64,000 bases of DNA from Pseudomonadales bacterium (GTDB lineage Bacteria > Pseudomonadota > Gammaproteobacteria > Pseudomonadales > IMCC2047). Of the stretch, positions 9,089 through 26,555 are shown piece after piece; position 1 is the stretch's first letter, and the number at the start of each line of letters is the position of its first letter. The position numbers and the translations under genes were made by a program. The stretch lies in NCBI GenBank assembly GCA_036960805.1, contig JBALXL010000002.1, positions 75,052 through 139,051 on the forward strand, written 5' to 3'. The notes below the pieces were generated by a model. It was not told the origin of the DNA. It was given only the letters and a program-made list of their open reading frames with translations, and did not search any database.

Positions 9089-9100
9089 GACTAGCCAGAC

Positions 9101-9189: not shown

Positions 9190-9266
9190 GGGCCTTTAGC
9201 TCAGCTGGTTAGAGCATCCGACTCATAATCGGCAGGTCCCCAGTTCGAGTCTGGGAAGGCCCACCA
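9190..9266 (+). tRNA. ileX: tRNA with CAU anticodon, probably tRNA-Ile2 (lysidine type) rather than elongator Met
   Basis: 77 nt cloverleaf: acceptor GGGCCTT/AAGGCCC, anticodon arm CCGA-CTCATAA-TCGG, T-arm CCCAG-TTCGAGT-CTGGG, encoded CCA. G1-C72 excludes an initiator. The anticodon arm CGACTCATAATCG and C4/C5 match my memory of E. coli ileX, which also lies downstream of rpoD. Confidence 0.85.
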
Positions 9267-10457: not shown

Positions 10458-10620
10458 TCATAATCGGCAGGCCCCAAGTTCGAGTCTGGGAGGACCCTCC
10501 ATTTCTTCTTTGCGGAAAATCCTCGAGCGCACATCAAAGCACCGCCATTCTAATCTTCCCATTTGAGCACAGCTTTCGATAAAGCCGACAGGCTGCTTTG
10601 AGCCAAAAGCGGCCATTCAG
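10458..10620 (+). repeat. Direct repeat copy 2: pseudo-tRNA 3' half (10458..10501) plus downstream repeat
   Basis: tcataatcggcaggccccaagttcgagtctgggaggaccctcca matches the anticodon-loop-to-CCA part of the tRNA at 9190 with a few mismatches and has no 5' half. It continues tttcttctttgcggaaaatcctcgagcgca...ccatttgagcacagctttcgataaagccgacaggctgctttgagcca. Confidence 0.85.
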
Positions 10621-11620: not shown

Positions 11621-11696
11621 TGGTGGGCCGTGCTGGATTCGAACCAGCGACCAATTGGTTAAAAGCCAACTGCTCTACCAACTGAGCTAACGGCCC
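11621..11696 (-). tRNA. tRNA-Lys (UUU)
   Basis: Reverse complement GGGCCGTTAGCTCAGTTGGTAGAGCAGTTGGCTTTTAACCAATTGGTCGCTGGTTCGAATCCAGCACGGCCCACCA. It forms a clean cloverleaf with anticodon loop CTTTTAA and an encoded CCA. Confidence 0.9.
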
Positions 11697-11867
11697 CCTA
11701 AAAGCGGACGCCATCATACTGCTTTATAAATAAGTATAAAAGCCTTTTTCAGAGAATCCGTACTATAATCTGCTCGACGCTCTGTGATGTTTGCCTCAAA
11801 ACTTTGATTATTCCATTTATCCGAATGGCTCTTAAGGGTCGGAAGCTGGCTTGCCTAACCTCAGCTG

Positions 11868-12056
11868 CACGTTCTCAGGAACCAGTATGCCTCCCACCTA
11901 GTGAATAACGGGCGTTCACTCTACGAAGCGCAACAGACCCTGCGGCACTCAGACCCCACCGTGACGCAGTGATACGCTCATCTATCAACCAGAGCCCTTC
12001 AGGAGGCTACAGAAAGTGCGGAGTGTGCCTGGGATACCCTGCCAAAAGCATCCTAG
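11868..12056 (+). pseudogene. 3'-terminal remnant of a tyrosine recombinase (phage-type integrase) gene, copy a
   Basis: Translation HVLRNQYASHLVNNGRSLYEAQQTLRHSDPTVTQ*YAHLSTRALQEA... matches the conserved integrase C-terminus (HxLRHTFASHL..G....Q.LLGHS....T.RYAHL). An in-frame TGA (11970-11972) replaces the Arg before the catalytic Tyr. There is no upstream catalytic core, and a stop lies just upstream. Confidence 0.75.
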
Positions 12057-12084
12057 AGGCCGCTACTCTGGACGATCTTGCTAC

Positions 12085-12135
12085 GGCCACACCTTTGGGG
12101 TGTGGCCAGGCTTTCCTTTATTATTTTTCTTTTTA
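12085..12135 (+). terminator. Stem-loop plus T-rich tract after the integrase remnant
   Basis: ggccacacc-tttgg-ggtgtggcc (9-bp stem) followed by aggctttcctttattatttttcttttt. The homologous sequence after remnant b (~20232-20283) has decayed. Confidence 0.5.
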
Positions 12136-12190
12136 GCAACTGTTTTACTTTCGCTGGAGCGACCAGCTATAACAAAAAGATAGTCATCAA

Positions 12191-12238
12191 AATTTTAGTT
12201 TTTAGGTTCTCGCCCACTTCGCCCCGACAGTGACACAG
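12191..12238 (+). repeat. Short integrase-3' fragment, copy c
   Basis: aattttagtttttaggttctcgcccacttcgccccgacagtgacacag aligns with 20060..20110 (agttttagtttttcaggtttttagcttctcggccattccgaccccacggtgacgcag). This is the LLGHSDPTVTQ-coding segment. Confidence 0.5.
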
Positions 12239-12288
12239 AGTCATTTACAGGTTTTGATAATCCGGACTTAGGAAAAGCAGCCCACAGT

Positions 12289-14580
12289 TTATTTATGGAC
12301 GTGCCAAGCCACATCAGGCTTCCACCCACTCACCCACGCAGGAATATCACCTGCAGGCATCGGCCTTGCAATGCCATATCCTTGTGCTAATTCACAGCCC
12401 AGTTGCAATAGAGCAGTGCCATGCTCAATCGTTTCCACACCTTCAGCAATCACGTCAAGTTTGAATGATTTAGCTAGGGCTATCACGCCTTCAACGATAA
12501 TCAAATCATCATCGTCACTCAACATGTCACGCACAAAACTCTGGTCTATCTTGATTAATTTTGCTGGCAAACGTCTAAGATAAGTAAGTGATGAATAACC
12601 TGTACCAAAATCATCCAGGGAAAATTGTACGCCTAATTCCATACAGGCATTCATGATTTCTGACACATGCTGCACATCATCCAAGGCACTTGTTTCCAGT
12701 ATCTCTAGCTCTAAATAGCGTGGCTCAACATTAGGGTGGGCTGCTAGCAGCGTGGCAAGCCTATCCGAAAAGTCAGACTGCTGTAATTGTATTGCTGCAA
12801 TGTTTACACTGGTGCTTATGGGTAGATTTAGTCCTGTTTCTTGCCATTGGCTTATTTGTGTCAATACGGTATCAATGACCCATTCACCCATCTCGACAAG
12901 CATGGGGTTATGCTCAATGAGCGGCAAAAACTCCATTGGATTTAATAGCCCTCGTTCTGGATGTTGCCAGCGAATTAGTGCCTCAACACCCGTCACCACA
13001 CCTGTCCGCATATTAACCTTAGGCTGATAATGAAGCACAAATTGCTGCGTATCTAATGCCCTGCGAATAGCCTTTAGGCTTTGCCTTTGCAATTTAACAG
13101 CTTCATCTTGAGCGGTATCAAACAAGTGATAACGATTCTTACCCGTTCCTTTAGCGACATACATGGCTTGATCAGCATGGCGCATGAGCTGGTCGGCATC
13201 CACACTATCTTGGGGATAGAGGGTAACGCCAATACTAGCTGATACATTTAATACCACGTCACCGACGATGACAGGTTCAGACGCTGCCAGTAACAACCTC
13301 TCTAATATCGGCTCGCAATCTTCAACTTTATCTAAATCCACTAATACAGCCACAAATTCATCACCACCAAAACGGGCTAAGGTATCGCCTTCACGTAACG
13401 CCTCTTTCATGCGGACTGAGAGTGCAATCAGCAGTTCATCACCCTCATCATGACCATAGACATCATTGACGTGTTTAAAATTATCTAAATCTAAAAATAC
13501 GACAGCGAGTGATTGCTCGTGACGGTGGCACTGCAACATGGATTGAGATAATCGGTCAGCAAGTAATGAACGGTTGGGTAAATTAGTAAGTATGTCGTAA
13601 TTGGCAATACGCTCTAGTTCCTCTTGATATTCTTTCATCGGGGTGATGTCGTTACCTAAGGCGACATAATGGGTAGTGATACCGTGTTCATTACTTACTG
13701 CACTGATAGTTTTCATTTCAGCATACACTTCGCCATTTTTACGACGATTCCATACTTCGCCAGACCAATAGCCTTCTTCCTTTAGTGCTTGCCACATGCC
13801 GACATAAAAATCGGATGCTTGTCTACCCGATTGAAGGAAACGTGAATTCTGACCAATAGCCTCTTCACGACTAAAACCCGTTATACGAGTGAAGGTGTCG
13901 TTAATATCGATAATGGTCGCTGTATCATCGGTGATAGTGATGCCTTCACGGGCATGAGTGAATACACTGGCAGCGAGTTTGAGTTTTTCTTCTGATTTCT
14001 TGAAGTCGGTAATGTCTGTATGTGTGCCCACCATACGTAGTGGCTTGTTATGACCATCGCGGCTTACTGCCATGCCACGCCCAAGTATCCATTTGTAACT
14101 ATCATCCTTACATCGCAGCCTATAGGTGGCTACATATATTGGCAGGCTTCCTTCCAGATAGGCTTGCATGGTTCCACTGACAACCTCCTTGTCTTCAGGG
14201 TGAATACGGTCAACCCATTCCTGATTGATAGGAGTGATTTCATCTTCAGCATAGCCAAGCATCTCTTTCCAGCGTTTGGAATAGATGGCTTTGTCGGTTT
14301 GTATATCCCAGTCCCAAACACCGTCACCTGAACCCTCGATAGCAAATGCCCAGATTTTTTCACTTTTACTTATTCTCTTCAGCTGGCGCTGAACAAGAAA
14401 AAAGAGGAGAACACCAGTAGTAAGGATATAAAACCAACCCTTTATTGTTTGTAGCTGGCTTATTTCCTCTTCACTATTAAAGAAGTATGTAAGAGCGTTA
14501 TCAGAAGCCAGTATCCATATAGCACCTACACATATGTAGATTAATGATATTTTTGCAGAGGATTTCCATGAACTATTCAT
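12289..14580 (-). CDS. Membrane-anchored PAS-PAS-GGDEF-EAL c-di-GMP signalling protein (paralog A)
   Basis: 763 aa. Two N-terminal TM helices and two PAS modules. GGDEF domain (YDILTNLPNR, RFGGDEFVAV) and EAL domain (EALIRWQHP, DDFGTGYSSL, QGYGIARP). The C-terminal ~570 aa are a paralog of 16213..19821. Confidence 0.9.
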   Translation of the reverse strand: MNSSWKSSAKISLIYICVGAIWILASDNALTYFFNSEEEISQLQTIKGWFYILTTGVLLFFLVQRQLKRISKSEKIWAFAIEGSGDGVWDWDIQTDKAIYSKRWKEMLGYAEDEITPINQEWVDRIHPEDKEVVSGTMQAYLEGSLPIYVATYRLRCKDDSYKWILGRGMAVSRDGHNKPLRMVGTHTDITDFKKSEEKLKLAASVFTHAREGITITDDTATIIDINDTFTRITGFSREEAIGQNSRFLQSGRQASDFYVGMWQALKEEGYWSGEVWNRRKNGEVYAEMKTISAVSNEHGITTHYVALGNDITPMKEYQEELERIANYDILTNLPNRSLLADRLSQSMLQCHRHEQSLAVVFLDLDNFKHVNDVYGHDEGDELLIALSVRMKEALREGDTLARFGGDEFVAVLVDLDKVEDCEPILERLLLAASEPVIVGDVVLNVSASIGVTLYPQDSVDADQLMRHADQAMYVAKGTGKNRYHLFDTAQDEAVKLQRQSLKAIRRALDTQQFVLHYQPKVNMRTGVVTGVEALIRWQHPERGLLNPMEFLPLIEHNPMLVEMGEWVIDTVLTQISQWQETGLNLPISTSVNIAAIQLQQSDFSDRLATLLAAHPNVEPRYLELEILETSALDDVQHVSEIMNACMELGVQFSLDDFGTGYSSLTYLRRLPAKLIKIDQSFVRDMLSDDDDLIIVEGVIALAKSFKLDVIAEGVETIEHGTALLQLGCELAQGYGIARPMPAGDIPAWVSGWKPDVAWHVHK

Positions 14581-14838
14581 ATACTAAACTTTAAACCGCT
14601 AATCTCAGTCTGAGAATTAAATTTACTTAAACACATGCTTCACATGCGCCCTATCTTTCTATTTCGCCAAATTATGATTTAAACAAAAAACCACCGCGCC
14701 GACCACAAAAAAACCTCAACATAGCACTGTTCTGGCCAACAATTCCGGACACTTTAATTAGCTAATTGCTCATACTGAATCGGCGACAAATTATCATTGA
14801 ATGAGTGAGGTTAATCCAGGTTGTAATATTTCATATAG

Positions 14839-15003
14839 GCAGCCGTGGAACCAGGCGTAGTATACATAACAGCCGGTTCTGCACGCGCCCCCATTGTACA
14901 AAATACGGTGGAATCAGTACTTCCTAACACGCCTGTCGTAGGTGGGAATTATTTAAGCTCTGTGTCGTATGCCTGGCCAGATGGGCGAACTTATGTTTTA
15001 GGT
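14839..15003 (+). pseudogene. 3' remnant (~55 codons) of a second YegD-like Hsp70 gene
   Basis: Reads AAVEPGVVYITAGSARAPIVQNTVESVLPNTPVVGGNYLSSVSY..., versus GAVKPDVVYITGGSARSPFVQNTVKSVLPNTPIVGGDYLSSVTY... at 22449..22616. A 1-nt deletion shifts the frame near the end, and nothing homologous lies upstream of 14839. Homology continues ~115 bp past the stop (to ~15120, versus ~22730). Confidence 0.8.
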
Positions 15004-15164
15004 GAGAGTAACTATCGAACTTAATTGGGCGCTAATGATTTGCTTTGTCCCACGCAGGTTCGATTTTTGTTCGGCGTTCTGCATACCCCTTCCCATGTAA
15101 CGCATAATCGAATGAGCAGCTGAAACGTGCTTCCGAACCCAAGAAGTTCGGTTGGCTTCTGCCC

Positions 15165-15240
15165 CACTCCAATCAGCCCCATTTGAACACAGCTTTCGAT
15201 AAAGCCCACAGGCTGCTTTGTGCCAAAAACAGCCATTCAG
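15165..15240 (+). repeat. Repeat core, copy 3
   Basis: cactccaatcagccccatttgaacacagctttcgataaagcccacaggctgctttgtgccaaaaacagccattcag. It is near-identical to 9311..9371 and shares the gccattcag ending with copy 2. Confidence 0.85.
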
Positions 15241-15271
15241 GAGTTAGAACAACACCTTTTTCCTGAAGCGA

Positions 15272-15715
15272 CTAGTCTACGCGCACACCGTGATTTGCAA
15301 GCCATCGCTGATCCAGAACCCAGCGTACAGCGCTAACATCCTCTTGGCTTTTCACTAATTTACCCGCATATGACTGCACCCGGGCCAGCTCTTCTTGTGC
15401 CGCCATCATTTCATCGGACACTGCACTGCGTTTCTGCAACGCCGGATACATAACACGAAGCGACTGAACGGCCGACAACTTTGCAGAACGAGGACTGCTC
15501 ACTTGTGCCACGCCATTTTCCAGGGATACTACGCGAAATGGGTAAGGGTAGGCTGTCAGTTCGGCGTCAGCTTCAAGCAGCTCATTTACCTCGCTCACCC
15601 GAAAGTCCAAACTGCTCAGCCACAAGACAAAGCCAACTAGTACCAGTCCCACCAAAATATAGAGATAGTTTCGGGTGAAACCATCCAACCCAGCGCTTTC
15701 CTGCTTTTCATCCAT
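15272..15715 (-). CDS. Hypothetical single-pass membrane protein
   Basis: 147 aa. One TM helix (YLYILVGLVLVGFVLWLSSL), then a soluble domain I could not recognise. Codon usage looks normal by eye. No family identified. Confidence 0.55.
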   Translation of the reverse strand: MDEKQESAGLDGFTRNYLYILVGLVLVGFVLWLSSLDFRVSEVNELLEADAELTAYPYPFRVVSLENGVAQVSSPRSAKLSAVQSLRVMYPALQKRSAVSDEMMAAQEELARVQSYAGKLVKSQEDVSAVRWVLDQRWLANHGVRVD

Positions 15716-16031
15716 GATAAATCCCCTGTAATTGAAGTAGTGGCGTTAAGGCTTGAGATGAACATAGGCTTCGACCAGATTAACCTCCACGCACTCTAGT
15801 AACGTCACATTAGCCTGTCTTAACCCTGTTGCAATTGATAGCTGCACTATTAGCTAGAATACTCATTCGTGCTGCTCCTACTAGATTTCCTTTTCTTTGT
15901 GGCGTCGGAAAGCAGGTGACTGAACTCACCATCTCAACGCCATTGCCCTCTTAAAAGTAGCTCTCCCCTCACAACCACAAGATAACGGTTAGCCGTTGTA
16001 GCACTTGTTTTCTCATACTTTTGACGAGTTA

Positions 16032-16057
16032 TCGATTGAAGTATTCACTTCAATCGA
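16032..16057. promoter_or_regulatory. Perfect 11-bp inverted repeat in the divergent intergenic region
   Basis: tcgattgaagt-attc-acttcaatcga lies ~155 bp upstream of the 16213 start, within a 497-bp AT-rich spacer. It could be an operator or a structural element. Confidence 0.35.
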
Positions 16058-16212
16058 AGTGATATTAGCTGAATTTCTGCTATTACTAATAAGGTCACTT
16101 ATATAATTATGCTCGGCTCCACCTATGGTGAAGAGATGTGTGGCTTTAAGGTTGAAATAAAAAAAGTATTTCCCCTTAACCAAAAAAATTTGGTTCTTTG
16201 TATTAAGCATGG

Positions 16213-19200
16213 ATGCATCTGATGGAAGCCGGCTCTCGAAAAGTACTCTTTTTTTCTATATCAGTAACGTTGCTCATCATGGCTGTCGTTTACTACTCAT
16301 TCCTCACCGGACGCGATATAGCAGAACGCCACTCTCCTTTAGTTGATGCAGCTATGGCGATTAAGCTTGAAGCGACCACAGCACATTTATGGTTTGAAGA
16401 GGTTGTTAGTGGTGACCGAACTGTTGATATCGAGGTGATATGGGCTCATCTTGACCAATCAGAATGGTATGCACATGCAATGCTTGATGGAGGCAAGAAT
16501 GAGAAAGGCACCTTCCTAGCCCTAAACGACCCCAATTTACGACTCCAAGTTGAAGAAACAATAACCGGTCTTCATAACTTCCGCCAAATTGCTCAACAAC
16601 GGTGGAATGCACAATCAACATCAGGTGCTGGCTCTGATCTCGACCAACAATTTGATCTCGCCTTTTTACAATTCAATCTTTCTGCTGATAATGTTGAGAA
16701 CGCCTTACACAAGGCAATAGCAGAAGACTTACAAGCGTTTAAATTTACACAACGATTATTAATCATCCTTATTTTTATATTGGGGATCGTCATAGGTGGC
16801 TTATTACTACGCTACAACACTAGGCAAATCAAAAATATAGACGCACTAAAATTGAGCGAAGAAAATGTTCGCCAATCTCAAAATCTACTTCTGAATATAA
16901 TTAATGGAGCGAAGCTGGGTTATTGGGACTGGCATTATCAAACTGGTGTGCATATTGTTAATGATGAATGGTTGTCAATGCTTGGTCTATCACGACAAGA
17001 TATTACAAATCATACTCGTGACTGGGAGGACCGTATTCATCCGGCTGACGAAGAGTTTGTGAAAAAAAATGTTCAAACTCATATTCAGTCTGGGAAAAAT
17101 TATGTAACTGAATTCAGGATGAAGCATGCTGACGGCAGGTGGATATGGATTCAAGGCTCTGGCTCTGTTGTTGAGTACGATGAAAGCACTCACGAACCTC
17201 TTCGGCTTTGCGGAACACATCAAGATATTACCGAGCGAAAACTCGCTGAACTACGTGAAAAATCCCGCGCTCATGTATTAGAACTCCTTACGAGTGACGA
17301 GCTATTACCTGTAATTCTAGAAGCCATTGTGCGTGGTGTTGAACAAGAAAACCCGGCTATGCTATGTAGCATTTTATTACTAGACGATGCCGGCAAACAT
17401 TTATTGAGTGGCGCAGCACCCAGCCTACCTGATTTTTATAACACGGCGATTAATGGCGTTGAGATTGGTATGGGGGTTGGCTCCTGCGGAACAGCCGCTT
17501 TTACTAATGAACGCGTCATTGTTGATGATATTCAGATCCATCCTTACTGGACGTCCTATAAAGAGCTGGCAAATAAAGCAGCATTGGGCGCCTGTTGGTC
17601 GGAACCAATACGCTCGATAGAAGGTAAAGTACTTGGCACCTTCGCCATTTATCATCACGATAAGTATCAGCCAACAGTCGCTAATCTTAGCTTAATTGAG
17701 CAGACAGCCTACTTAGCAAGTATTGCTATTGAGCAAGCTCAGAGTCATTTAGCATTAAAGAACAATGAGCTGCGGTTTCATCAATTGCTTCAGTCTATCC
17801 CTTCAGTTGCCGTACAAGGCTACGACTACGAGGGTAAGACACGCTACTGGAATAAAGCTTCCGAGAATCTATATGGATACAGTGCTGATGAAGCAATAGG
17901 CCAGAGTTTGTATGATTTGATTATCCCGCCAGCGATGCGACCCGGTGTGCGAGATGCGATGCAGCAGATGCTTGAATCTCAACATCCTATTCCCTCTGGT
18001 GAGCTCACTTTAATGACTAAGGATGGGTCATATATTAATGTATTTTCCAGCCATGCCTATGTCCATGTACCGGGACAGTCACCTGAAATGTTCTGCATCG
18101 ATGTTGATTTAACCGAGCGTAAACAATCCGAAGAAAAACTAAAGCTGGCCGCCACCGTATTCTCTCACGCCCGGGAAGGCATCATGATTACCGATGCGTC
18201 TGGCAACATTGTCGAAGTCAACGACACTTTCACCAACATCACCGGCTATTCCCGCGAAGATGTCATTGGCCAGAACCCACGCATGCTCCAATCAGGCGGG
18301 CAATCGCCTGAGTTTTATGCCGAAATGTGGGAATCTCTACTAGAAAAAGAGCACTGGAAAGGCGAAGTATGGAATCGACGTAAGAGCGGCGAAATCTGCG
18401 CTCAACTCCTCACTATCAGTACGGTGCAAGATGCTGCGGGTCAAGCGCAGAACTACGTTGCATTATTCACTGACATTACACAAATGAAAGAACATCAGGG
18501 GCAGCTAGAGCATATTGCACACTACGATGTATTAACCAATCTGCCTAACCGTGTATTGCTCTCTGACCGCTTAAGCCAAGCCATGGTGCAGTGCCAACGT
18601 CATCATCAGTCATTAGCCGTCGCATTTCTGGATTTAGATGGCTTTAAAGACGTGAATGATACCCATGGCCATAATGTGGGAGATGAGCTACTCATTACGT
18701 TGTCACGCCGCATGAAAGAGGCATTACGTGAAGGTGATACCTTAGCCCGTATTGGTGGAGATGAGTTTATCGCTGTATTGGCAGGTTTAGCTAAAGCTGA
18801 AGATTGCCAGCCTGTATTAGAGCGACTCCTTCAGGCCGCTGCCACCCCGGTTACCGTGGATAACGCTGTAATGCAAGTGTCAGCGAGTATTGGGGTAGCC
18901 ATCTACCCACAAGATAATGTAGATACAGATCAGCTCATGCGACACGCAGACCAAGCCATGTATGTGGCTAAGCAGGCAGGTAAGAACCGTTATCACTTGT
19001 TTGATACGGTACAAGATGAAGCCGTCAAAATTCAGCGCAAAAGTATAGGTGACATTCGTTCAGCTTTAGAGCGCCGAGAATTTGTGCTGCACTATCAACC
19101 CAAGGTGAATATGCACACTGGCAACGTCATTGGAGTAGAAGCCTTAATCCGTTGGCAACACCCGAATCTCGGTCTGCTGTCTCCCGCAGCCTTTTTACCC

Positions 19201-19821
19201 GTAATTGAAGACCATGCCATTAGTCTGGACGTAGGTGAGTGGGTTGTCGATACTGCTCTAATACAAATCAACCAATGGCAAAGCATGGGGATACATCTAC
19301 CCATCAGCGTCAATATTAGCGCCTATCAACTACAACAAGATAACTTCTCAATTCGCTTAGCCGAGTTATTAGCAGCGCACCCTGAAGTAAACCCACGCCA
19401 TTTAGAATTAGAAATACTGGAAACAAGCGCCTTAGGTGACCTGCAACATGTGTCAACAATCATGAATGCCTGTATAGCGCTCGGCGTAAACTTTTCCATA
19501 GATGATTTTGGTACAGGCTATTCATCACTTACATACCTTAGACATTTGCCAGCCAGCCTGATTAAGATAGACCAAAGCTTTGTACGTGACATGTTGATTG
19601 ACCCTGATGATTTGGCCATTATTGAAGGCGTTATAGCCTTAGCTAAATCATTCAAACGTGATGTAATTGCTGAAGGCGTTGAAACGATTGAGCATGGCAC
19701 TGCTCTATTGCAACTGGGCTGTGAATTAGCACAAGGATATGGCATTGCAAGGCCGATGCCTGCAGGTGATATTCCTGCGTGGGTGGATGGGTGGAAGCCT
19801 GAGGTTAGTTGGCAGACCTGA
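16213..19821 (+). CDS. Multidomain sensor: TM-flanked N-terminal domain, PAS, GAF, PAS, PAS, GGDEF, EAL (paralog B)
   Basis: 1202 aa. TM helices near aa 12-32 and 180-200. The PAS segment has LNIINGAKLGYWDWHY. The GAF-like segment is ~aa 350-510. Two more PAS modules follow, then GGDEF (RIGGDEFIAV) and EAL (EALIRWQHP, DDFGTGYSSL). Confidence 0.9.
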   Translation: MHLMEAGSRKVLFFSISVTLLIMAVVYYSFLTGRDIAERHSPLVDAAMAIKLEATTAHLWFEEVVSGDRTVDIEVIWAHLDQSEWYAHAMLDGGKNEKGTFLALNDPNLRLQVEETITGLHNFRQIAQQRWNAQSTSGAGSDLDQQFDLAFLQFNLSADNVENALHKAIAEDLQAFKFTQRLLIILIFILGIVIGGLLLRYNTRQIKNIDALKLSEENVRQSQNLLLNIINGAKLGYWDWHYQTGVHIVNDEWLSMLGLSRQDITNHTRDWEDRIHPADEEFVKKNVQTHIQSGKNYVTEFRMKHADGRWIWIQGSGSVVEYDESTHEPLRLCGTHQDITERKLAELREKSRAHVLELLTSDELLPVILEAIVRGVEQENPAMLCSILLLDDAGKHLLSGAAPSLPDFYNTAINGVEIGMGVGSCGTAAFTNERVIVDDIQIHPYWTSYKELANKAALGACWSEPIRSIEGKVLGTFAIYHHDKYQPTVANLSLIEQTAYLASIAIEQAQSHLALKNNELRFHQLLQSIPSVAVQGYDYEGKTRYWNKASENLYGYSADEAIGQSLYDLIIPPAMRPGVRDAMQQMLESQHPIPSGELTLMTKDGSYINVFSSHAYVHVPGQSPEMFCIDVDLTERKQSEEKLKLAATVFSHAREGIMITDASGNIVEVNDTFTNITGYSREDVIGQNPRMLQSGGQSPEFYAEMWESLLEKEHWKGEVWNRRKSGEICAQLLTISTVQDAAGQAQNYVALFTDITQMKEHQGQLEHIAHYDVLTNLPNRVLLSDRLSQAMVQCQRHHQSLAVAFLDLDGFKDVNDTHGHNVGDELLITLSRRMKEALREGDTLARIGGDEFIAVLAGLAKAEDCQPVLERLLQAAATPVTVDNAVMQVSASIGVAIYPQDNVDTDQLMRHADQAMYVAKQAGKNRYHLFDTVQDEAVKIQRKSIGDIRSALERREFVLHYQPKVNMHTGNVIGVEALIRWQHPNLGLLSPAAFLPVIEDHAISLDVGEWVVDTALIQINQWQSMGIHLPISVNISAYQLQQDNFSIRLAELLAAHPEVNPRHLELEILETSALGDLQHVSTIMNACIALGVNFSIDDFGTGYSSLTYLRHLPASLIKIDQSFVRDMLIDPDDLAIIEGVIALAKSFKRDVIAEGVETIEHGTALLQLGCELAQGYGIARPMPAGDIPAWVDGWKPEVSWQT

Positions 19822-20082
19822 ATAAATTGAAGAGCGATTTGAGAACCCCCGACGTTGCCGTCGTGCCAGTTCTAGCCACCATATATGAATGTGCCAAAAG
19901 TGTTGTAGCGCTATCTTCCTGATGTTAAATAACCTAGCTGTCCGCATGAGTCGAAAGCAGACAGTCTGACATGTAAATCTCACCCGATCTTCCAGTTACT
20001 TCGTGAAACACAAACCACTCAAAGCAATCTTAGTTGCTGCAACTAACACCCCCAGCCAAGTTTTAGTTTTTCAGGTTTTTAG

Positions 20083-20215
20083 CTTCTCGGCCATTCCGAC
20101 CCCACGGTGACGCAGCAGATGCTCACCTCTCTACCAGAGCCCTTCAGGAAGCCGAAAAAAGTGCGGCGGCGTGTCTTGCCGTCACCCTGTCAAAAGAGCC
20201 CTAAAGGCAGCCCCT
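20083..20215 (+). pseudogene. 3'-terminal integrase remnant, copy b
   Basis: LLGHSDPTVTQ, then frameshifted YAHLS..RALQEA-equivalent sequence. It is nucleotide-homologous to 11940..12056. The post-gene spacer homology continues to ~20283 (versus ~12130), about 45 bp before the RNase H start. Confidence 0.7.
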
Positions 20216-20324
20216 CTAGGCGACATTGCTACGCCCACATCCTTCGGCGCGCGGCCTGGTTTCCCATTATTTTTTTGCTTTTAAATCACAATAGCTTTAT
20301 ACAAGCCCCCAACAGGAGATAACA

Positions 20325-21071
20325 ATGCCACCAAAGAAGTTTTACGCAGTTTGGGCCGGCCATAAACCCGGCATTTACACCACTTGGGCTGAAGCAGAGA
20401 AACAAGTGAAGGGTTATCCCAAAGCGGGATTTAAATCATTTTCAACAAGACCGCTTGCCGAAGAAGCATTCGCTAACGGTACAGTTGCACCCTCAAAACC
20501 TGCTCTTCAACGCAAACCAGCAGAATCCCCTAACGCCACCAACGGAACATCTACTTCCGATGTAGATATTTTCTGTGATGGGGCATGTAACCCAAACCCT
20601 GGACAGTCAGGTACTGGCATCGCTATCTACAAAAAACAGCAACTGGATCAGCTTTGGTATGGTCTACACAACCGATCTGGAACCAACAATACTGCCGAGC
20701 TACTGGGGCTTTACCATTCACTCATATTTGCCAAAGCAGCCGCAGAAGATGGCCAAAGCGTCACGGTTCACTGTGACTCTAAATACTCCATTGACTGCGT
20801 TACAACATGGGCATCGGGATGGAAGGCTAAGGGCTGGAAAAAGAAAAGTGGCGAGATTAAGAACCTAGACATCATCAAACCTGCACACACTCTTTATTTA
20901 GAGATCGCTGCCAAAGTTCAAGTGCAGCATGTAAAAGGCCATGCGGGCATTGAAGGTAATGAGTTAGCTGATCGTATGTCTGTGATTGCTATCGAGCGAC
21001 AAGAGGCTGAGCTGAGTCAATATACTGAATCACTGTCTATTCCCGATATTTTAGCGCTGGCCAGAGGCTAA
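20325..21071 (+). CDS. RNase H1 with an N-terminal hybrid-binding (Cauli_VI-type) domain
   Basis: 248 aa. The N-terminus KKFYAVWAGHKPGIYTTWAEAEKQVKGYPKAGFKSFSTRPLAEEAF is the HBD signature. A Pro/Ser/Thr linker follows. The RNase H core has the DEDD residues (CDGACNPNPG, NNTAELLGL, HCDSKY, GNELADRMS). GGAG lies 8 nt upstream of the ATG. Confidence 0.85.
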   Translation: MPPKKFYAVWAGHKPGIYTTWAEAEKQVKGYPKAGFKSFSTRPLAEEAFANGTVAPSKPALQRKPAESPNATNGTSTSDVDIFCDGACNPNPGQSGTGIAIYKKQQLDQLWYGLHNRSGTNNTAELLGLYHSLIFAKAAAEDGQSVTVHCDSKYSIDCVTTWASGWKAKGWKKKSGEIKNLDIIKPAHTLYLEIAAKVQVQHVKGHAGIEGNELADRMSVIAIERQEAELSQYTESLSIPDILALARG

Positions 21072-21263
21072 CTTTTAGACTAATAGTGCCAAAGATGTTC
21101 TGAGCAAGGACGACGATTTCCACCTCGTTAACGGGCTAAAAAAGGTGTAAATGTGACTCACTGATTGCGCTCGGCTATTTCGTTGTGTGAGTAATTTAAA
21201 TAAATACATCCAAATAATTTAGATTTGAATTTTTGAATAAAGATAAAAAAGTAAGGGTAAGTA

Positions 21264-22616
21264 ATGGCTATTGGCTTTGATTTTGGAACATCTAATTGTT
21301 CGGTTGCACATGTTGTTAACGGTAATGTTCAAGCTATTCCTTTGTCGGATAACGAATCATCTATCCTATCCGCATTGTGCGCGCCGACTCGCCAAACGGT
21401 ACCCGAGTATCTTTTTAGTTGCCTTAATATTTCACCTATGAACAGCGTCGGTGAAGGTGCGCTCAGGCGGGCAATCGCTGAGAACCGAGCAGAGGATTTG
21501 CAGGTAAAAATAGATGACGTGCTCTTTGGTAAACAGGCTTTAGATTTATATCTGGAAGACCCCGAAAATGTCTATTACGTAAAATCGCCGAAGTCATTCT
21601 TGGGCACACTGCAACTGCATGAGCCTCAACTGGCAATGTTTGAAGATATCGTCTGTGCGATGATGGCTAATATCAAAACAAAGGCGGAAGCATCCTTAGA
21701 TAGACAAATCACTGAAACAGTTATCGGCCGGCCTATTAATTTTAATACCCTAGGCGGGGAAAAATCGAATATTCAGGCTGAGGGAATATTGCGTAGAGCT
21801 GCGTCTCGGGCAGGGTTTAAGCATATTGAATTTCAATTTGAGCCTGTTGCGGCAGGTTTAGATTTTGAATCCACTTTAACGTCAGAAAAAAATGTTCTCG
21901 TTGTCGATATCGGGGGTGGAACCTCCGATTGCTCGTTGATTCGCATGGGACCAAAGTGGCTGGCAAAGAAGGACCGTTCGGAAACCCTCTTAGCTCATGC
22001 TGGCAAGTCAGTGGGCGGCAACAATTTAGATATCTCAATAGCATTTCAGCGATTCATGCCTGAGTTTGGTAAAAACACAGAACAAAAATCAGGTTTACCT
22101 ATGCCATCAATGGCATTTTTGAACGCGGTTTCCACTAATGATGTTATTGCACAGAGAAAATTTTATTCATATGAAAACCTGGAAGCGCTAAGAAAATTAC
22201 GTATCGAAGCCAAGCAACCAGATAAATTAGAGAGGCTTATTCAGGTGCATCAAAAAGCATTAGGGCACCTGGTTGTTGGTGAGTCTGAAAAAGCAAAAAT
22301 CGCATTATCAGATAAATCACATCATACAGCGAATATCGAATTACCATCAGAAACGATTGATATACCTATGTTCGCTGAGCAAATGGAACACGCTATTGCC
22401 GGGCCAATGCGCCAAATAAAAAGTTTGATTGAAGAAATATTGACGCAAGGAGCCGTAAAACCAGACGTGGTATATATAACAGGCGGTTCTGCACGCTCTC
22501 CCTTTGTACAAAATACGGTGAAATCAGTACTTCCTAATACGCCTATCGTCGGTGGGGATTATTTAAGCTCCGTGACTTATGGCCTCGCCAGATGGGCAAA
22601 CTTATGTTTTAGGTAA
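21264..22616 (+). CDS. yegD: Hsp70-family actin-like ATPase, YegD type
   Basis: 450 aa, the same length as E. coli YegD. Hsp70 NBD motifs are IGFDFGTSNC (phosphate 1), VVDIGGGTSDCSLI (phosphate 2) and ITGGSARSPFVQ (adenosine). There is no canonical DnaK substrate-binding domain. Confidence 0.8.
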   Translation: MAIGFDFGTSNCSVAHVVNGNVQAIPLSDNESSILSALCAPTRQTVPEYLFSCLNISPMNSVGEGALRRAIAENRAEDLQVKIDDVLFGKQALDLYLEDPENVYYVKSPKSFLGTLQLHEPQLAMFEDIVCAMMANIKTKAEASLDRQITETVIGRPINFNTLGGEKSNIQAEGILRRAASRAGFKHIEFQFEPVAAGLDFESTLTSEKNVLVVDIGGGTSDCSLIRMGPKWLAKKDRSETLLAHAGKSVGGNNLDISIAFQRFMPEFGKNTEQKSGLPMPSMAFLNAVSTNDVIAQRKFYSYENLEALRKLRIEAKQPDKLERLIQVHQKALGHLVVGESEKAKIALSDKSHHTANIELPSETIDIPMFAEQMEHAIAGPMRQIKSLIEEILTQGAVKPDVVYITGGSARSPFVQNTVKSVLPNTPIVGGDYLSSVTYGLARWANLCFR

Positions 22617-22939
22617 GCGCAACTGCCGAACTTAATTGGGCTCCAATGATTTACTTTCCCCCTCCAAGTTCAGTTTTTGTTCGGCGTTCCGCATACACCT
22701 CCCCGTGGAGCTCATAACCGAGTGAGCAACAAAAACCCCTTTTCGCCACCAGAAAGCTTGCCCATGGCTCGGGCGGCTTTCAGCTCACTCCATCCACCTG
22801 AAAAACGCTTTACAATTCTTCCGCTTACGAGATCCAAAACAAAAACATTCATAGCTGTAAGTACGCTGTTAACAGATATTTGGTCCTCTAAAGATCCAAG
22901 TATCCCAAGCAGGCGTTTGATGTCTACAAGGAGAGGTAT

Positions 22940-23464
22940 ATGAAAAAACTACTATTAGCCGTAGCCATCACTTTAAGCCTGGCAGGTTGCGGGCACGTCA
23001 GCGTTGAAGACTATGCAGCCAACCAGCCACAATTTGACCCTCAGAAATTCTTCAACGGATCACTCTCCGCTGAGGGAATAGTGCTTTCTCGCAGCGGAGA
23101 GTTGCAGCGTTACTTTACCGCTGACATTGAGGCCACATGGCACAAAAGCAACGGCAGCCTAAAGGAAACCTTTTATTGGAATGACGGTGAACGACAACAG
23201 CGGCACTGGAAATTTAACCGCCGTGAGGATGGCACTTGGCTCGGTACCGCAGAAGACGTTGAGGGCATGGCCGAAATGCGCTTTAGCGGCAATGCGATTC
23301 ACATGCGCTACCCCCTGCAACTATCAATGGGAGGGCGCACCATAACGCTCACCATGGATGACTGGCTGTTTCAGGTATCCGACAATGTCATCATTAACAA
23401 AACCCGTATTAGCAAATTCGGATTTAGACTGGGTGACGTGATATTGACCATTCGCAAGCCTTAA
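22940..23464 (+). CDS. DUF3833 family lipoprotein
   Basis: 174 aa. Lipobox LSLAGC, then PQFDPQKFFNGSLSAEGIVLSRSGELQRYFTADIEATW, resembling DUF3833 as I recall it. Confidence 0.65.
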   Translation: MKKLLLAVAITLSLAGCGHVSVEDYAANQPQFDPQKFFNGSLSAEGIVLSRSGELQRYFTADIEATWHKSNGSLKETFYWNDGERQQRHWKFNRREDGTWLGTAEDVEGMAEMRFSGNAIHMRYPLQLSMGGRTITLTMDDWLFQVSDNVIINKTRISKFGFRLGDVILTIRKP

Positions 23465-23684
23465 TACGGGTTACGCGACTAAAGTAGTCCAGCAATAGAA
23501 CAACGCAACTAATTAGAGTATCCGACGCAGCCCTTTTATAACGTCGAGCAGCATAAAAACAAACCCCCAAGGATAACCCCACTACCTCCCTCTATTTCAA
23601 TAATAAAATGCAATGATCTTTTACGCTGACTGTCCTAAGATGAACTCATTGTTATTTGTTGCTTCTTCCCGAAAGGAATCCTAC

Positions 23685-26459
23685 ATGCCACGCAGCACAG
23701 ACTTCAAAAAAATTACTTGTTTTAAATCTCTGCTTATCAGCGCCAGTCTGACGTTTTCAGCAGCGATTTTTGCCGATACTCTGGATCAGGCGCAACAATC
23801 CTTCGACAAGGCCTCTTACCCTACAGCTATTATTGAATTAAAGAATATCCTGCAAGCGGAGCCTGAAAATGCCGCTGCTCGATTATTACTAGGGCGTAGT
23901 TATTTAAAACAACGAAATATTCTAGCGGCCATCAAAGAACTGGAGTCGGCAAAACAGCTCGGGGCACCAGAGTCAGAGTGGCTGGTACCGCTCAACCGAG
24001 GTTATTTACTGAGCGGTAAAACGGATGACGTTATTGCCTCGCTAGATAAGCTGCCGCAACTCGCTAACGCTGAGCAAGCGGAGCTATTGGCGATTATCGG
24101 CCATGCCCAACTGAGCAAAAACCAAATCATTGATGCCAAGGATTCCTTTCAACAGGCTCTCTCAACAGATAAAAATGCCTATGCAAAAATTGGGCTTGCG
24201 CGAGTGGCAATGTTGGAACAACAAAACGATGTCGCCCTGCCTTTACTAGAAGAAGCGCTGTCCATTGATCCAAATAACCTGAACGCCCTGTTATCTAAAA
24301 GCCAACTCTTATCGTCACAACAACAGTTTCAAGAGGCCATTGAACCGCTGGATCGCGCGCTGGAGGTTGATAACCGCCTACAAAATGCCCGCATGATGCG
24401 TAGTGAACTTTATATCCGCACCAATCAACTTAAAAAAGCTCGCAGCGAAGCCGAATTACTGCTTAAACAAAACCCCAATAATGGCTTGGCGTATTTCACT
24501 CTTGCGCGCCTGCAGTTAAATGATCAGCAATACGCTGCAGCGCAAACCTCAGGTGAAAAAGCCCTACGTTCAATGCCTGATCATTTGATGAGTCATTTTA
24601 TTTTGGGTGCCACTCATTACGCTCAGCAAAACTTCGAGCAAGCGCAATTTTATCTGGAAAAATTCGTCGCAGCGCAACCTGACCATCTAATTGCCACTCG
24701 TCTGCTAGGGGCTATTTACCTTCAACTCAAAGACTCAGACCGTGCCGTTGAACTATTAGCTGCCTATGACAGCAAAGGCATCAGTAACGATGCGCAGCTG
24801 ATCAATCTACTAGGCCGCGCATATTTACAGTCTGGCGACTACACGCAGGGAACAGAAACACTCAATCGAGCATTAGAGATAAACCCTGACATTCAAAACA
24901 CTCGTACTCAACTTGCGATAGGTCAGATTGCCAGTGGTGACGTTAACAAGGCGATTGTCGAACTGGAAAACGCCATAGCGCTACCCGACGCCACCGAACA
25001 AACCAGTGTCATGCTGATACTTTCCTACCTCAACCAACAGCAACTCGACAAAGCTTTTGCGGCCATTAAAAACGCCCGCCAACAATACCCTGATAATGCA
25101 GCCTTCCTTAACCTCAAGGGCATGACTCACGAAAATCAACAAGATACCGTCGCGGCTAGAGCAGCCTACGAAGAGGCGTTAAACATAGATAAAAAATTCA
25201 TTCCTGCGCTATTGGCCTTAGCCAAACTAGATATGAAATCACACCAAATTTCGGCTGCTCGCGCACGTTTGAATAGCGCACTTGAAATCGATAAAAACCA
25301 CCCACAAAGCTTATTGTTGATGGCCCAATCATCCCAAATAAAGGGTGACACCAATGAGATGATTAAATGGCTGAAAAAGGCCCGTGATAGAAACAGCGCA
25401 ATGATTTTACCCGTTAACCTGCTCACCAATTATTATCTAACCGTTGGTGATTTAAAAAAGGCTAGTAGTGAAGCTTCACGCTATTTCACTAGCCAGGACA
25501 AAAGCGTTCACAGCCTGTTATTAATGGCACGCGTTGCTTTAGCGAAAGGAGAAAATGATAAAGCCAGCTCCTATCTACAGGACGTGGTATCAAGCAACCC
25601 CAAAAACATCAACAGCCGACTGCAGCTGGCTCAGCTATACAGCAACAGTAAAGATTATGCACAGGCGTTAAAACATCTTGATGAAGTACTTGCCCTACAG
25701 CCACAACATCTCGGAGCGCAAACGGCTCTTGCTGGCATTCTCATCGCAGAACAACGCTACGATGAGGCCCAGCAAGCCATCGATAAGTTTTCCAGCAACG
25801 TACCTGATCACTTCATGACAGATCGCCTGCAAGGTGACTGGTTTGCAGCCCAGCAACAAACCGGCAAGGCCATCGAAGCCTATGCAAAAGCCTTTAGCAT
25901 GAAACAAACGCCTTACCTGGCTAACACGCTGAGTCGGATTTATGCTCAAGAGGGAAATCAACAGCAAGCCGCCGATACATTAGAAGCATATTTACTGAGC
26001 GCACCAACAGATCATAAAAGTCGCCTTGTCTTAGCCTCACACTACCAACAAATTGGCAGCAACGCCCAGGCGATCAAGCATTATGAAAAAATTGCAGCAA
26101 TAGAGGAAAATGTGATCACCTTCAACAATCTGGCCTGGCTTTATTGGCTGGAAAGATCGAGTAAAGCACTCAGCACCGCTGAAAAAGCTTACCAATTAGC
26201 GTCCGATAGCGCCGCTGTTATCGATACCTATGGCTGGATCATGCTACACCAAGGTGACAAATCAAAAGCTCTGAAGCTCATTCAAAAGGCAACGTCCCTA
26301 AGTCCAGCCAATCCGGACATACGGTATCATCTGGCTAAAGCGCTGGCCGATATGGGTGATAAGGACAAGGCAAAAAAAGAGATCAGCCGTCTGTTGAGAG
26401 ATTATCAGGGTTTTGAAGAAGAGCCCGCAGCCAAAAAGCTGGCGGCCGCATTGGAATAA
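23685..26459 (+). CDS. Large secreted TPR-repeat protein (PrsT-like)
   Basis: ATG at 23685 (GAAAGGA upstream) gives ~924 aa with a signal peptide and TPR-like repeats throughout. Size and repeat style resemble PEP-CTERM-system PrsT, but no exosortase gene is in the window. The track start at 23613 is probably too early. Confidence 0.7.
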   Translation: MPRSTDFKKITCFKSLLISASLTFSAAIFADTLDQAQQSFDKASYPTAIIELKNILQAEPENAAARLLLGRSYLKQRNILAAIKELESAKQLGAPESEWLVPLNRGYLLSGKTDDVIASLDKLPQLANAEQAELLAIIGHAQLSKNQIIDAKDSFQQALSTDKNAYAKIGLARVAMLEQQNDVALPLLEEALSIDPNNLNALLSKSQLLSSQQQFQEAIEPLDRALEVDNRLQNARMMRSELYIRTNQLKKARSEAELLLKQNPNNGLAYFTLARLQLNDQQYAAAQTSGEKALRSMPDHLMSHFILGATHYAQQNFEQAQFYLEKFVAAQPDHLIATRLLGAIYLQLKDSDRAVELLAAYDSKGISNDAQLINLLGRAYLQSGDYTQGTETLNRALEINPDIQNTRTQLAIGQIASGDVNKAIVELENAIALPDATEQTSVMLILSYLNQQQLDKAFAAIKNARQQYPDNAAFLNLKGMTHENQQDTVAARAAYEEALNIDKKFIPALLALAKLDMKSHQISAARARLNSALEIDKNHPQSLLLMAQSSQIKGDTNEMIKWLKKARDRNSAMILPVNLLTNYYLTVGDLKKASSEASRYFTSQDKSVHSLLLMARVALAKGENDKASSYLQDVVSSNPKNINSRLQLAQLYSNSKDYAQALKHLDEVLALQPQHLGAQTALAGILIAEQRYDEAQQAIDKFSSNVPDHFMTDRLQGDWFAAQQQTGKAIEAYAKAFSMKQTPYLANTLSRIYAQEGNQQQAADTLEAYLLSAPTDHKSRLVLASHYQQIGSNAQAIKHYEKIAAIEENVITFNNLAWLYWLERSSKALSTAEKAYQLASDSAAVIDTYGWIMLHQGDKSKALKLIQKATSLSPANPDIRYHLAKALADMGDKDKAKKEISRLLRDYQGFEEEPAAKKLAAALE

Positions 26460-26486
26460 TGCGCCGCTAACGTACTTACGAGACAA

Positions 26487-26528
26487 ATAAAAAGGCCCGC
26501 TAGCTTAATGTTAGCGGGCCTTTTTATT
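26487..26528. terminator. Bidirectional rho-independent terminator
   Basis: aaataaaaaggcccgcta-gcttaatgt-tagcgggcctttttatttg: a 9-bp GC-rich stem flanked by an A-run and a T-run, lying between convergent genes. Confidence 0.8.
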
Positions 26529-26555
26529 TGTCTGCTGCGGTAAATTTACCGTCTT

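What the first reader, a model, noticed from the sequence alone, without database searches (positions are those of the whole stretch)
20325..22616. RNase H1 (hybrid-binding domain) plus YegD-like Hsp70 ATPase pair, apparently the cargo of an integrase-linked module that existed twice
Two same-strand genes lie 192 nt apart. One is an RNase H1 with an N-terminal Cauli_VI/HBD RNA:DNA hybrid-binding domain and intact DEDD residues. The other is a 450-aa Hsp70 nucleotide-binding-domain protein of the YegD type, with all three ATPase motifs intact. An integrase 3' remnant and its spacer (20083-20283) end about 45 bp before the RNase H start.

A second integrase remnant with the same spacer sits at 11868-12135. 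A second 3' end of the Hsp70-like gene, with the same ~115 bp of downstream sequence, sits at 14839-15120. The simplest reading is that an int / RNase H-HBD / Hsp70-like module was present in two tandem copies, and that one copy was later gutted.

An ATPase paired with a nuclease on an integrase-associated cassette is the usual layout of anti-phage or anti-plasmid systems. I know of no described system with this pair. From memory (verify this), E. coli K-12 yegD lies beside yegI-yegJ-yegK-yegL, whose kinase/PP2C/vWA content resembles the TerY-P triad, and close to the PAS-GGDEF-EAL gene dgcE (yegE). That loosely echoes the GGDEF-EAL neighbours seen here.
Basis: partly seen in the sequence, partly recalled or inferred. 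Interest (0 to 1): 0.7.

Follow-up and report, generated by a model that had tools for sequence, protein, structure and literature searches.

The report
Unlinked RNase H and YegD neighbours
An RNase H1-type gene and a YegD-type Hsp70-like ATPase gene do lie side by side next to integrase scars, but they are neighbours only in this narrow lineage, inside a decayed pile of tRNA-Met-inserted islands, so this is an ordinary juxtaposition and not a new two-gene system.

Summary
The functional reading is not supported.

- **Adjacency is lineage-restricted.** RNase H-YegD adjacency occurs only in this window and two contigs at 90% or higher identity.
- **Broad surveys find nothing.** None of 80 RNase H-HBD loci from other species has YegD within 10 kb. 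None of 79 other YegD loci has the RNase H.
- **Close relatives differ.** They keep the same integrase(remnant)-RNase H locus but carry other genes downstream: DUF480, small ORFs, or a cation-efflux gene.
- **YegD looks imported.** It is a discrete cassette (21187-22657) closest to Amphritea (84% aa), where it sits in a native chromosomal context. RNase H diverges in step with host RpoD.
- **The setting is an island graveyard.** The stretch from rpoD/tRNA-Met to prsT holds partial tRNA-Met copies, a conserved ~200-nt island right end and integrase scars. One relative still has the intact ~12-kb island.

"A module that existed twice" is partly right. There are two related island ends, 75-84% identical, with no second RNase H trace.

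Interest is low.

The parts
9190..9266 (+). tRNA-Met (CAU) just downstream of rpoD. It is the attachment site of the island family.
   Evidence: ARAGORN and Rfam tRNA at 68.6 bits. Its 3' half recurs as partial copies in the window and in relatives L001, L009 and L091.
10458..10616 (+). Partial tRNA-Met 3' copy (about 10458-10510) plus a copy of the 116-nt sequence that follows the tRNA. It reads as an att-type scar.
   Evidence: 9223-9382 against 10458-10616, 85%, E 1e-44; alignment A1.
11862..12135 (+). Integrase remnant A (residues 329-393 of a P4-type tyrosine recombinase, with one in-frame stop), followed by its terminator hairpin and T-run.
   Evidence: tblastn with the L001 integrase, 72%, E 7e-22. 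Hairpin of -21.8 kcal/mol at about 12085-12110.
12198..12238 (+). Third, very short integrase fragment covering the 'LLGHSDPTVTQ' region.
   Evidence: 33 of 41 nt identical to 20075-20115; alignment score 42 against a shuffle maximum of 24.
12289..14580 (-). PAS-GGDEF-EAL gene 1. It occupies the place where copy A would have held RNase H and the 5' part of YegD.
   Evidence: ORF list. Inverted paralogue of 16213-19821: 12285-13997 against 19829-18125, 74%.
14841..15151 (+). YegD 3' remnant (residues 397-439, up to about 15024) plus a truncated copy of the island right end.
   Evidence: 83.6% to 22451-22736, E 4e-81; tblastn 79%; A1 alignment with the right ends of L001, L007 and L009.
15165..15240 (+). 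Third copy of the sequence that follows tRNA-Met. It is fused to the truncated right end through the shared 'CACTCCAATCA', and attR is deleted.
   Evidence: 94% to 9311-9382; alignment A1.
16213..19821 (+). PAS-GAF-PAS-GGDEF-EAL gene 2, upstream neighbour of integrase remnant B. A GGDEF gene also precedes RNase H in L005 and on the P0001 contig.
   Evidence: ORF list.
20075..20283 (+). Integrase remnant B (residues about 354-391, frameshifted) plus a degenerate terminator/spacer.
   Evidence: tblastn. 87% to the L001 integrase 3' end continuing into RNase H: L001 9761-10748 against window 20086-21072.
20325..21071 (+). Type-1 RNase H with an N-terminal hybrid-binding (Cauli_VI) domain and an intact DEDD active site.
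   Evidence: Pfam; alignment A2; human RNase H1 6vrd is the best PDB match, E 1e-19.
21187..22657 (+). YegD cassette: gene 21264-22616 with its own 77-nt AT-rich upstream region and 41 nt downstream.
   Evidence: 81.6% nt identity to the Amphritea MAG locus L004 over exactly 21187-22657. Homology of non-YegD relatives to the window stops at 21071-21075. NCBIfam PRK11678 at 606 bits.
22645..22843 (+). Conserved island right end. In relatives it abuts the partial tRNA-Met attR copy; here attR itself is lost.
   Evidence: Matches L001 12044-12214, L007 7551-7723, L009 147-344 and L091 4817-4949, each followed by a tRNA-Met 3' half (truncated in L007).
22940..26459 (+). Chromosomal flank: a DUF3833 gene and the PEP-CTERM system TPR protein PrsT. 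PrsT is conserved to the right of the variable zone in L001, L005 and L091.
   Evidence: Pfam DUF3833; TIGR02917 at 677 bits; synteny.

Best explanation
These are two independent, stand-alone genes brought together by island turnover, not a system.

**Setting.** The stretch between rpoD/tRNA-Met and prsT is an integration hotspot in this IMCC2047-like gammaproteobacterial lineage. P4-type-integrase islands insert at the 3' half of tRNA-Met and then decay. They leave partial tRNA copies, a conserved ~200-nt right end and integrase 3' scars.

**RNase H.** The RNase H-HBD gene sits immediately after the integrase terminator in every member of the lineage, and it diverges in step with the host. 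It most likely does what type-1 RNases H with a hybrid-binding domain do. The HBD tethers it to RNA:DNA duplexes and the DEDD site cleaves the RNA strand (R-loops, primers). This function is inferred from family membership.

**YegD.** YegD is an NBD-only Hsp70-family ATPase of unknown cellular role. It arrived as a discrete cassette with its own upstream region, probably from a Nitrincolaceae-like donor. It landed in the variable slot between RNase H and the island right end. It appears there twice, in two diverged island copies, one of which is now reduced to its last ~50 codons.

**What is shown and what is inferred.** The gene identities, the scars, the att-like repeats, the lineage-restricted adjacency and the cassette boundaries are shown. 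The order of events, the donor and the biochemical roles are inferred.
For: **Adjacency is lineage-restricted**
- It is present in the window, on the P0001 contig and in L091, all at 90% or higher identity.
- None of 80 GTDB-species RNase H-HBD loci has YegD within 10 kb. Seventy-four of them have at least 2 kb downstream.
- RNase H has no conserved neighbour at all; the commonest neighbour cluster occurs in 9 of 80 loci.
- Only 1 of 80 metagenomic YegD loci has RNase H, and that one is the same lineage.

**The same RNase H locus has other downstream genes in close relatives**
- 121-aa and 136-aa ORFs in L001.
- DUF480 in L005 and L006.
- A cation-efflux gene on the minus strand in L007-L009.

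**YegD relatives sit elsewhere**
- Those at 84%, 79% and 73% identity lie in other contexts without RNase H.
- Enterobacterial ones lie in the udk-dgcE-alkA-yegD context.

**Island architecture**
- L001 has an intact integrase plus Prim-Pol, a resolvase and a BglII restriction-modification pair between two tRNA-Met 3' copies.
- The right end followed by a tRNA-Met half is seen in L001, L009 and L091.

**Phylogenetic contrast**
- Within the lineage RNase H is 85-92% identical where RpoD is 88%.
- YegD is 84% identical to an Amphritea MAG, while RpoD is only about 70-71% to the related genus Neptuniibacter.

**No defence signal**
- PADLOC gives nothing for RNase H or for the alternative cargo genes.
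Against: - No terminator or sigma-70-like promoter was detected in the 192-nt gap, so the pair may be co-transcribed here.
- The pair has been retained at about 90% identity in three sampled genomes or contigs.
- Both genes lie in island-derived DNA, which is where accessory systems often travel.
- Genomes such as Vibrio carry both families unlinked, so a functional relation without adjacency cannot be excluded.
- The 80-locus samples are capped subsets of 552 and 515 confirmed candidates.
Confidence: 0.82

Rival explanations
1. RNase H-HBD and YegD form a two-gene ATPase-nuclease module, for example an anti-phage or anti-plasmid system, carried as island cargo.
For: - The two genes are on the same strand, 192 nt apart, with no detected terminator between them.
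- They lie in integrase-linked, att-bounded DNA.
- The pair is retained in three sampled members of the lineage.
- YegD gives a weak hit to the PADLOC candidate PDC-M61B, E 3e-6 over 64 residues.
Against: - Adjacency is absent from 80 of 80 RNase H loci.
- It is absent from 79 of 80 YegD loci.
- Relatives at 85-92% identity keep RNase H with different downstream genes.
- The nearest YegD relatives lack RNase H.
- YegD has separate cassette boundaries and a different phylogenetic origin.
- RNase H gives no PADLOC hit.
Confidence: 0.04
2. RNase H-HBD is a functional component of the tRNA-Met island family, in an integrase-RNase H module. It might process RNA primers or R-loops for the island's Prim-Pol replication, or act in conflict with other elements. 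YegD would be unrelated variable cargo.
For: - In every sampled member of the lineage RNase H directly follows the integrase or its scar.
- It lies between the tRNA-Met att copies in L001 and L091.
- The intact L001 island encodes Prim-Pol/PriCT_2.
Against: - Outside this lineage RNase H-HBD shows no integrase linkage: 0 of 80 loci, and none in L172 or L174.
- It has no conserved neighbour.
- Its divergence tracks RpoD.
- It survives where the rest of the island is gone (L005, L008). This fits a host gene or a domesticated gene better than an island function.
Confidence: 0.1
3. The two partial modules arose by an in-situ tandem duplication of a chromosomal segment, followed by decay. They did not arise by two separate island integrations.
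For: - Both copies are in direct orientation.
- The 116-nt sequence that follows tRNA-Met is also repeated, three times, which simple att duplication does not predict.
Against: - Copy A is about equally distant from copy B (75%), L001 (77%) and L007 (75%). Copy B is 85-87% identical to L001 and L007.
- So copy A split off before these genomes diverged, yet no second copy is seen in the DNA fetched for them.
- No RNase H trace remains in copy A.
Confidence: 0.2

Closest known systems
Type-1 RNase H with N-terminal hybrid-binding domain (eukaryotic RNase H1; bacterial 'RBD-RNase HI' described in Shewanella sp. SIB1, the latter recalled from memory)
   Same: - It has a Cauli_VI/HBD domain, a linker and an RNase H domain with the DEDD residues.
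- The best solved-structure match is human RNase H1, 6vrd.
- Homologues named 'ribonuclease H / viroplasmin family protein' are common in Vibrio, Shewanella, Pseudoalteromonas and Halieaceae.
   Different: Nothing architectural differs. Here it lies next to an integrase scar, which is a lineage-specific accident of location. No NCBIfam equivalog threshold is reached. The Shewanella paper could not be retrieved.
E. coli YegD (NBD-only Hsp70 family protein, function unknown)
   Same: It matches equivalog PRK11678 over its full length, 606 bits against a cutoff of 331. It is 450 aa and has the conserved ATPase motifs. It consists of the DnaK-like NBD only, as described in PMC13580251.
   Different: E. 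coli yegD lies between alkA and the yegI/yegJ/pphC/yegL cluster, near dgcE. Here it is an imported cassette at an island end, with no kinase, PP2C or vWA genes nearby.
tRNA-linked genomic islands with P4-type (Arm-DNA-bind_3 / SAM_3 / Phage_integrase) integrases, and their decayed tandem arrays
   Same: - Partial tRNA 3' copies are present.
- An intact integrase island exists in relative L001.
- A conserved att-adjacent arm is present.
- Cargo varies between genomes.
   Different: No integrase is functional in the window. Excision or integration activity is not shown. The tRNA's downstream flank is also repeated, which is not explained.
Hsp70-like NBD components of defence superoperons (CoCoNuT CnuD/CnuCD, often with TerY-P triads; PMC11090510)
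   Same: An Hsp70-fold ATPase lies near a nuclease. E. coli yegD does sit beside a kinase/PP2C/vWA triad.
   Different: - No McrB/McrC, HEPN, helicase or TerY-P genes are present here.
- YegD has intact ATPase motifs and no substrate-binding domain.
- YegD is not mentioned in that paper.
- The only PADLOC similarity is a 64-residue fold-level hit.

Membership tests
RNase H1-type (HBD + RNase H) | N-terminal hybrid-binding (Cauli_VI) domain | tested here: met
   PF01693, residues 5-47, 71 bits against a cutoff of 21. It also matches the HBD structures 3bsu and 1qhk.
RNase H1-type (HBD + RNase H) | RNase H fold with the four catalytic carboxylates (DEDD) | tested here: met
   PF00075 at 102 bits. 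D85, E125, D151 and D216 are invariant in A2.
RNase H1-type (HBD + RNase H) | Cleavage of the RNA strand of RNA:DNA hybrids | not testable with these tools
   This needs a biochemical assay.
YegD (PRK11678) family | Full-length match above the curated equivalog cutoff | tested here: met
   NF008673, 606 bits against a cutoff of 331, residues 1-450 of 450.
YegD (PRK11678) family | Hsp70 NBD only, with no linker or substrate-binding domain, and intact phosphate-1, phosphate-2 and adenosine motifs | tested here: met
   The Pfam HSP70 match covers profile positions 2-240 of 599 only. The protein is 450 aa. Motif residues are invariant in A3.
Conserved two-gene (ATPase + nuclease) defence system | Gene pair conserved as neighbours across unrelated lineages | tested here: not met
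   0 of 80 RNase H loci and 1 of 80 YegD loci, that one from the same lineage. Close relatives have other neighbours.
Conserved two-gene (ATPase + nuclease) defence system | Match to a known or candidate defence family | tested here: not met
   PADLOC gives nothing for RNase H. For YegD it gives one weak partial hit, PDC-M61B, E 3e-6 over 64 residues.
Conserved two-gene (ATPase + nuclease) defence system | Protection phenotype that depends on both genes | not testable with these tools
   This needs cloning and challenge experiments.
tRNA-Met-integrating island (P4-type integrase) | Tyrosine recombinase gene | tested here: inconclusive
   The window holds only C-terminal scars. An intact 393-aa integrase sits at the same position in L001.
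tRNA-Met-integrating island (P4-type integrase) | Direct repeats of the tRNA 3' end bounding the element | tested here: met
   Window 10458-10510. L001 256-302 and 12240-12295 (the latter 100% to 9220-9275). L009 and L091 have copies next to the conserved right end.
tRNA-Met-integrating island (P4-type integrase) | Demonstrated excision or integration | not tested
   This would need read-level evidence of empty sites or circular forms.

The most novel reading that the evidence does not exclude
In this marine gammaproteobacterial lineage the HBD-RNase H may be a conserved working part of a tRNA-Met island family, encoded right after the integrase and supporting Prim-Pol-driven island replication or inter-element conflict. 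The slot between it and the island's right arm would be a cargo hotspot, and the poorly understood YegD ATPase is mobile into that slot. That would give YegD an accessory, conflict- or stress-related role.
Probability: 0.1. Interest if true: 0.45.

Novelty: already known. Interest (0 to 1): 0.13.

Why it matters
If the pair had been a conserved system, it would have given a first functional handle on YegD, an Hsp70-like protein with no known role. It would also have added a new RNase H-based defence.

The evidence shows a chance neighbourhood created by island turnover. What remains of value is modest:
- a clean example of a tRNA-Met integration hotspot with layered island scars;
- evidence that yegD can move horizontally as a single-gene cassette.

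Tried and rejected
- **Rfam scan of 8800-24000**. It found only the two tRNAs, so the repeated flank and the right end are not known RNA families.
- **Promoter/terminator scan of 19800-23000**. It found nothing between the two genes, which is uninformative either way.
- **PADLOC on both proteins and on the alternative cargo genes of relatives**. No defence assignment came out.
- **Literature search for 'RBD-RNase HI'**. It returned nothing, so the Shewanella precedent rests on memory.
- **A single inversion between the two GGDEF-EAL paralogues.** I tried to derive the layout of copy A from that of copy B this way and found no arrangement that works, so I left it open.
- **RNase H as a plain chromosomal flank with attR between the integrase and RNase H.** The spacer holds only the integrase terminator and no tRNA-like sequence.
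- **Structure prediction.** I did not run it, because no multimer option exists and the monomer folds are not in question.
Full report
**What is there**

The two ORFs are exactly as described.
- 20325-21071 encodes a 248-aa protein with a Cauli_VI hybrid-binding domain and an RNase H domain.
- Its four catalytic carboxylates are invariant among 23 homologues. Its best solved relative is human RNase H1.
- 21264-22616 encodes a 450-aa protein that matches the NCBIfam YegD equivalog PRK11678 end to end, 606 bits against a cutoff of 331. All three Hsp70-NBD nucleotide-binding motifs are conserved.

The integrase scars are real.
- The intact integrase of a relative aligns by tblastn to 11862-12053 (residues 329-393, one stop) and to 20083-20195 (residues 354-391, frameshifted).
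- A third 41-nt fragment lies at 12198-12238.
- The second YegD 3' end with shared downstream sequence (14841-15126 against 22451-22736, 83.6%) is also real.
- No second RNase H fragment exists.

**Host and setting**

The window is from a MAG labelled Pseudomonadales. Its RpoD is 90% identical to that of gamma proteobacterium IMCC2047 and about 70-71% identical to Pseudomonas and Neptuniibacter.

rpoD (7262-9088) is followed by tRNA-Met (9190-9266). The PEP-CTERM TPR gene prsT (23613-26459) closes the region on the right.

Between them the DNA is a patchwork.
- A partial tRNA-Met 3' copy with its flank lies at 10458-10616.
- A third copy of that flank lies at 15165-15240.
- Two PAS-GGDEF-EAL paralogues lie in inverted orientation.
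- There are two integrase scars.
- There are two copies of a ~200-nt sequence, at 15055-15151 and 22645-22843.

**What relatives show**

In GCA_942492345.1 (L001; RNase H 92%, RpoD 88%):
- An intact 393-aa P4-type integrase ends about 120 nt before RNase H, exactly where the window has remnant B.
- It is the last gene of a block holding a methyltransferase with BglII, a resolvase and Prim-Pol/PriCT_2.
- The block, together with RNase H and two small ORFs, is bounded by two tRNA-Met 3' copies (256-302 and 12240-12295). The second copy is 100% identical to window 9220-9275.
- The ~200-nt sequence found after YegD in the window lies directly before the second copy.

The same order, 'right end then tRNA-Met half', is seen in L009 and L091. 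It is truncated in L007.

So this sequence is the att-adjacent right arm of a tRNA-Met island family, and the whole rpoD-prsT interval is a stack of such islands in various states of decay.
- In the window the attR after 22843 has been lost.
- At 15151 the right arm is fused to the tRNA flank through an 11-nt microhomology.

**Is the RNase H-YegD pair a unit?**

No. Within the lineage the integrase(scar)-RNase H junction is constant, but the next gene is not.

| Locus | RNase H identity | Gene(s) downstream of RNase H |
|---|---|---|
| window, P0001 contig, L091 | about 90% or more (P0001 contig: YegD 90%) | YegD |
| L001 | 92% | 121-aa and 136-aa ORFs |
| L005, L006 | 90% | DUF480 |
| L007-L009 | 85% | cation-efflux gene on the other strand |

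- Homology between the window and the non-YegD relatives stops at the RNase H stop codon (21071-21075).
- Homology to the nearest outside YegD locus (Amphritea MAG, 81.6% nt) spans exactly 21187-22657. That is the gene with 77 nt of AT-rich upstream sequence.
- YegD therefore entered as its own cassette.

Broader surveys agree.
- An alignment-based scan of one genome per GTDB species returned 80 RNase H-HBD loci at 45-67% identity, from Gammaproteobacteria to Nitrospirota and Binatia.
- None of them has a YegD homologue, or an integrase of this type, within 10 kb. Seventy-four of the 80 have at least 2 kb downstream.
- Clustering of all flanking ORFs shows no conserved neighbour; the commonest occurs in 9 of 80 loci.
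- A metagenome scan returned 80 YegD loci. Only L091, from the same lineage, has RNase H.
- About 30 enterobacterial-type YegD loci show the E. coli context of udk, dgcE, alkA and mdtAB. That context is confirmed in K-12.
- YegD relatives at 84%, 79% and 73% identity lack RNase H. The two Nitrincolaceae loci share a YcaO gene upstream, which indicates a native position there.
- RNase H relatives at 73% and 70% identity sit next to IS fragments or a SRAP gene, with no integrase and no YegD.

**Origins**
- RNase H identity within the lineage (85-92%) parallels RpoD (88%). This is consistent with vertical descent.
- YegD is 84% identical to an Amphritea MAG protein. RpoD is only about 70-71% identical to the related genus Neptuniibacter. 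This points to horizontal acquisition of YegD.

**The 'module twice' idea**

- Copy A is 75-77% identical to copy B, L001 and L007. Copy B is 85-87% identical to L001 and L007.
- Copy A is therefore an older or foreign relative, not a recent tandem duplicate.
- It retains only the integrase tail and terminator and the last ~50 YegD codons. A GGDEF-EAL gene lies on the opposite strand between them, and there is no RNase H trace.
- I could not derive its layout from copy B by one simple rearrangement.

**Function**
- RNase H most likely acts as a stand-alone HBD-tethered RNase H on R-loops and primers. This is inferred from its family.
- YegD is an NBD-only Hsp70 relative with no established role (PMC13580251; PMC13232886).
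- PADLOC gives no hit for RNase H and only a 64-residue fold-level hit for YegD. It gives none for the alternative cargo genes.
- Hsp70-like proteins do occur in CoCoNuT defence superoperons with TerY-P triads (PMC11090510), and E. coli yegD does neighbour such a triad. None of those partners is present here.
- Co-transcription of the pair in this genome is possible, since no terminator was found. That is the only point in favour of a link.

**Verdict**

The integrase linkage and the duplicated ends are explained as island scars at a tRNA-Met hotspot. The proposed ATPase-nuclease system is not supported. Both genes belong to known families, so novelty is low and interest is low.

Noticed in passing
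window 9223-9382, 10458-10616, 15165-15240: The 116-nt sequence that follows tRNA-Met is repeated three times at 78-94% identity, not just the tRNA 3' half. Simple att duplication does not predict this. The sequence has no Rfam match.
   Followed up: partly
window 12285-13997 vs 19829-18125: Two PAS-GGDEF-EAL genes are inverted paralogues (74% nt over 1.7 kb). Each abuts an integrase scar. A GGDEF gene also precedes RNase H in L005 and on the P0001 contig.
   Followed up: partly
L001 256-12295 (GCA_942492345.1, CALOEK010000002.1): An apparently intact ~12-kb island lies between two tRNA-Met 3' copies. It holds an N6_N4 methyltransferase with BglII, a resolvase, Prim-Pol/PriCT_2, an 82-aa ORF, a P4-type integrase, RNase H and two small ORFs.
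   Followed up: partly
L174 8001-9551 and L175 702-2252: In a 70%-identical RNase H-HBD relative, the gene 64 nt downstream encodes a SRAP/YedK-family protein (an abasic-site DNA-protein crosslink protein). This suggests a DNA-damage context for RNase H-HBD in that genome.
   Followed up: no
window 15140-15175: The truncated island right end joins the tRNA-Met flank at a shared 'CACTCCAATCA'. This looks like a microhomology-mediated deletion that removed attR.
   Followed up: partly
L171 (E. coli K-12 2143266-2153128): yegD lies beside yegI (Ser/Thr kinase), yegJ, pphC (PP2C) and yegL (vWA), with dgcE and alkA on the other side. Published work links Hsp70-like NBD proteins and TerY-P triads in defence superoperons (PMC11090510), and yegJ overexpression induces yegD (PMC13232886). 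This is a lead for YegD function in Enterobacterales, not for this window.
   Followed up: partly
L004 3021-5789: In the Amphritea MAG, IS transposase genes, an rve gene and an AlpA-like gene lie between the conserved YcaO gene and YegD. The donor-like locus is therefore itself in a mobile neighbourhood.
   Followed up: no
window 26481-26533 and 9101-9132: Perfect or near-perfect palindromes lie just after prsT and just after rpoD. They are probably terminators.
   Followed up: no
L091 2403-5008: In the closest relative, three genes (160, 98 and 437 aa) are inserted between YegD and the right end. Part of the right-end sequence is duplicated on both sides (window 22711-22779 equivalents). This suggests recombination at the arm sequence.
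   Followed up: partly
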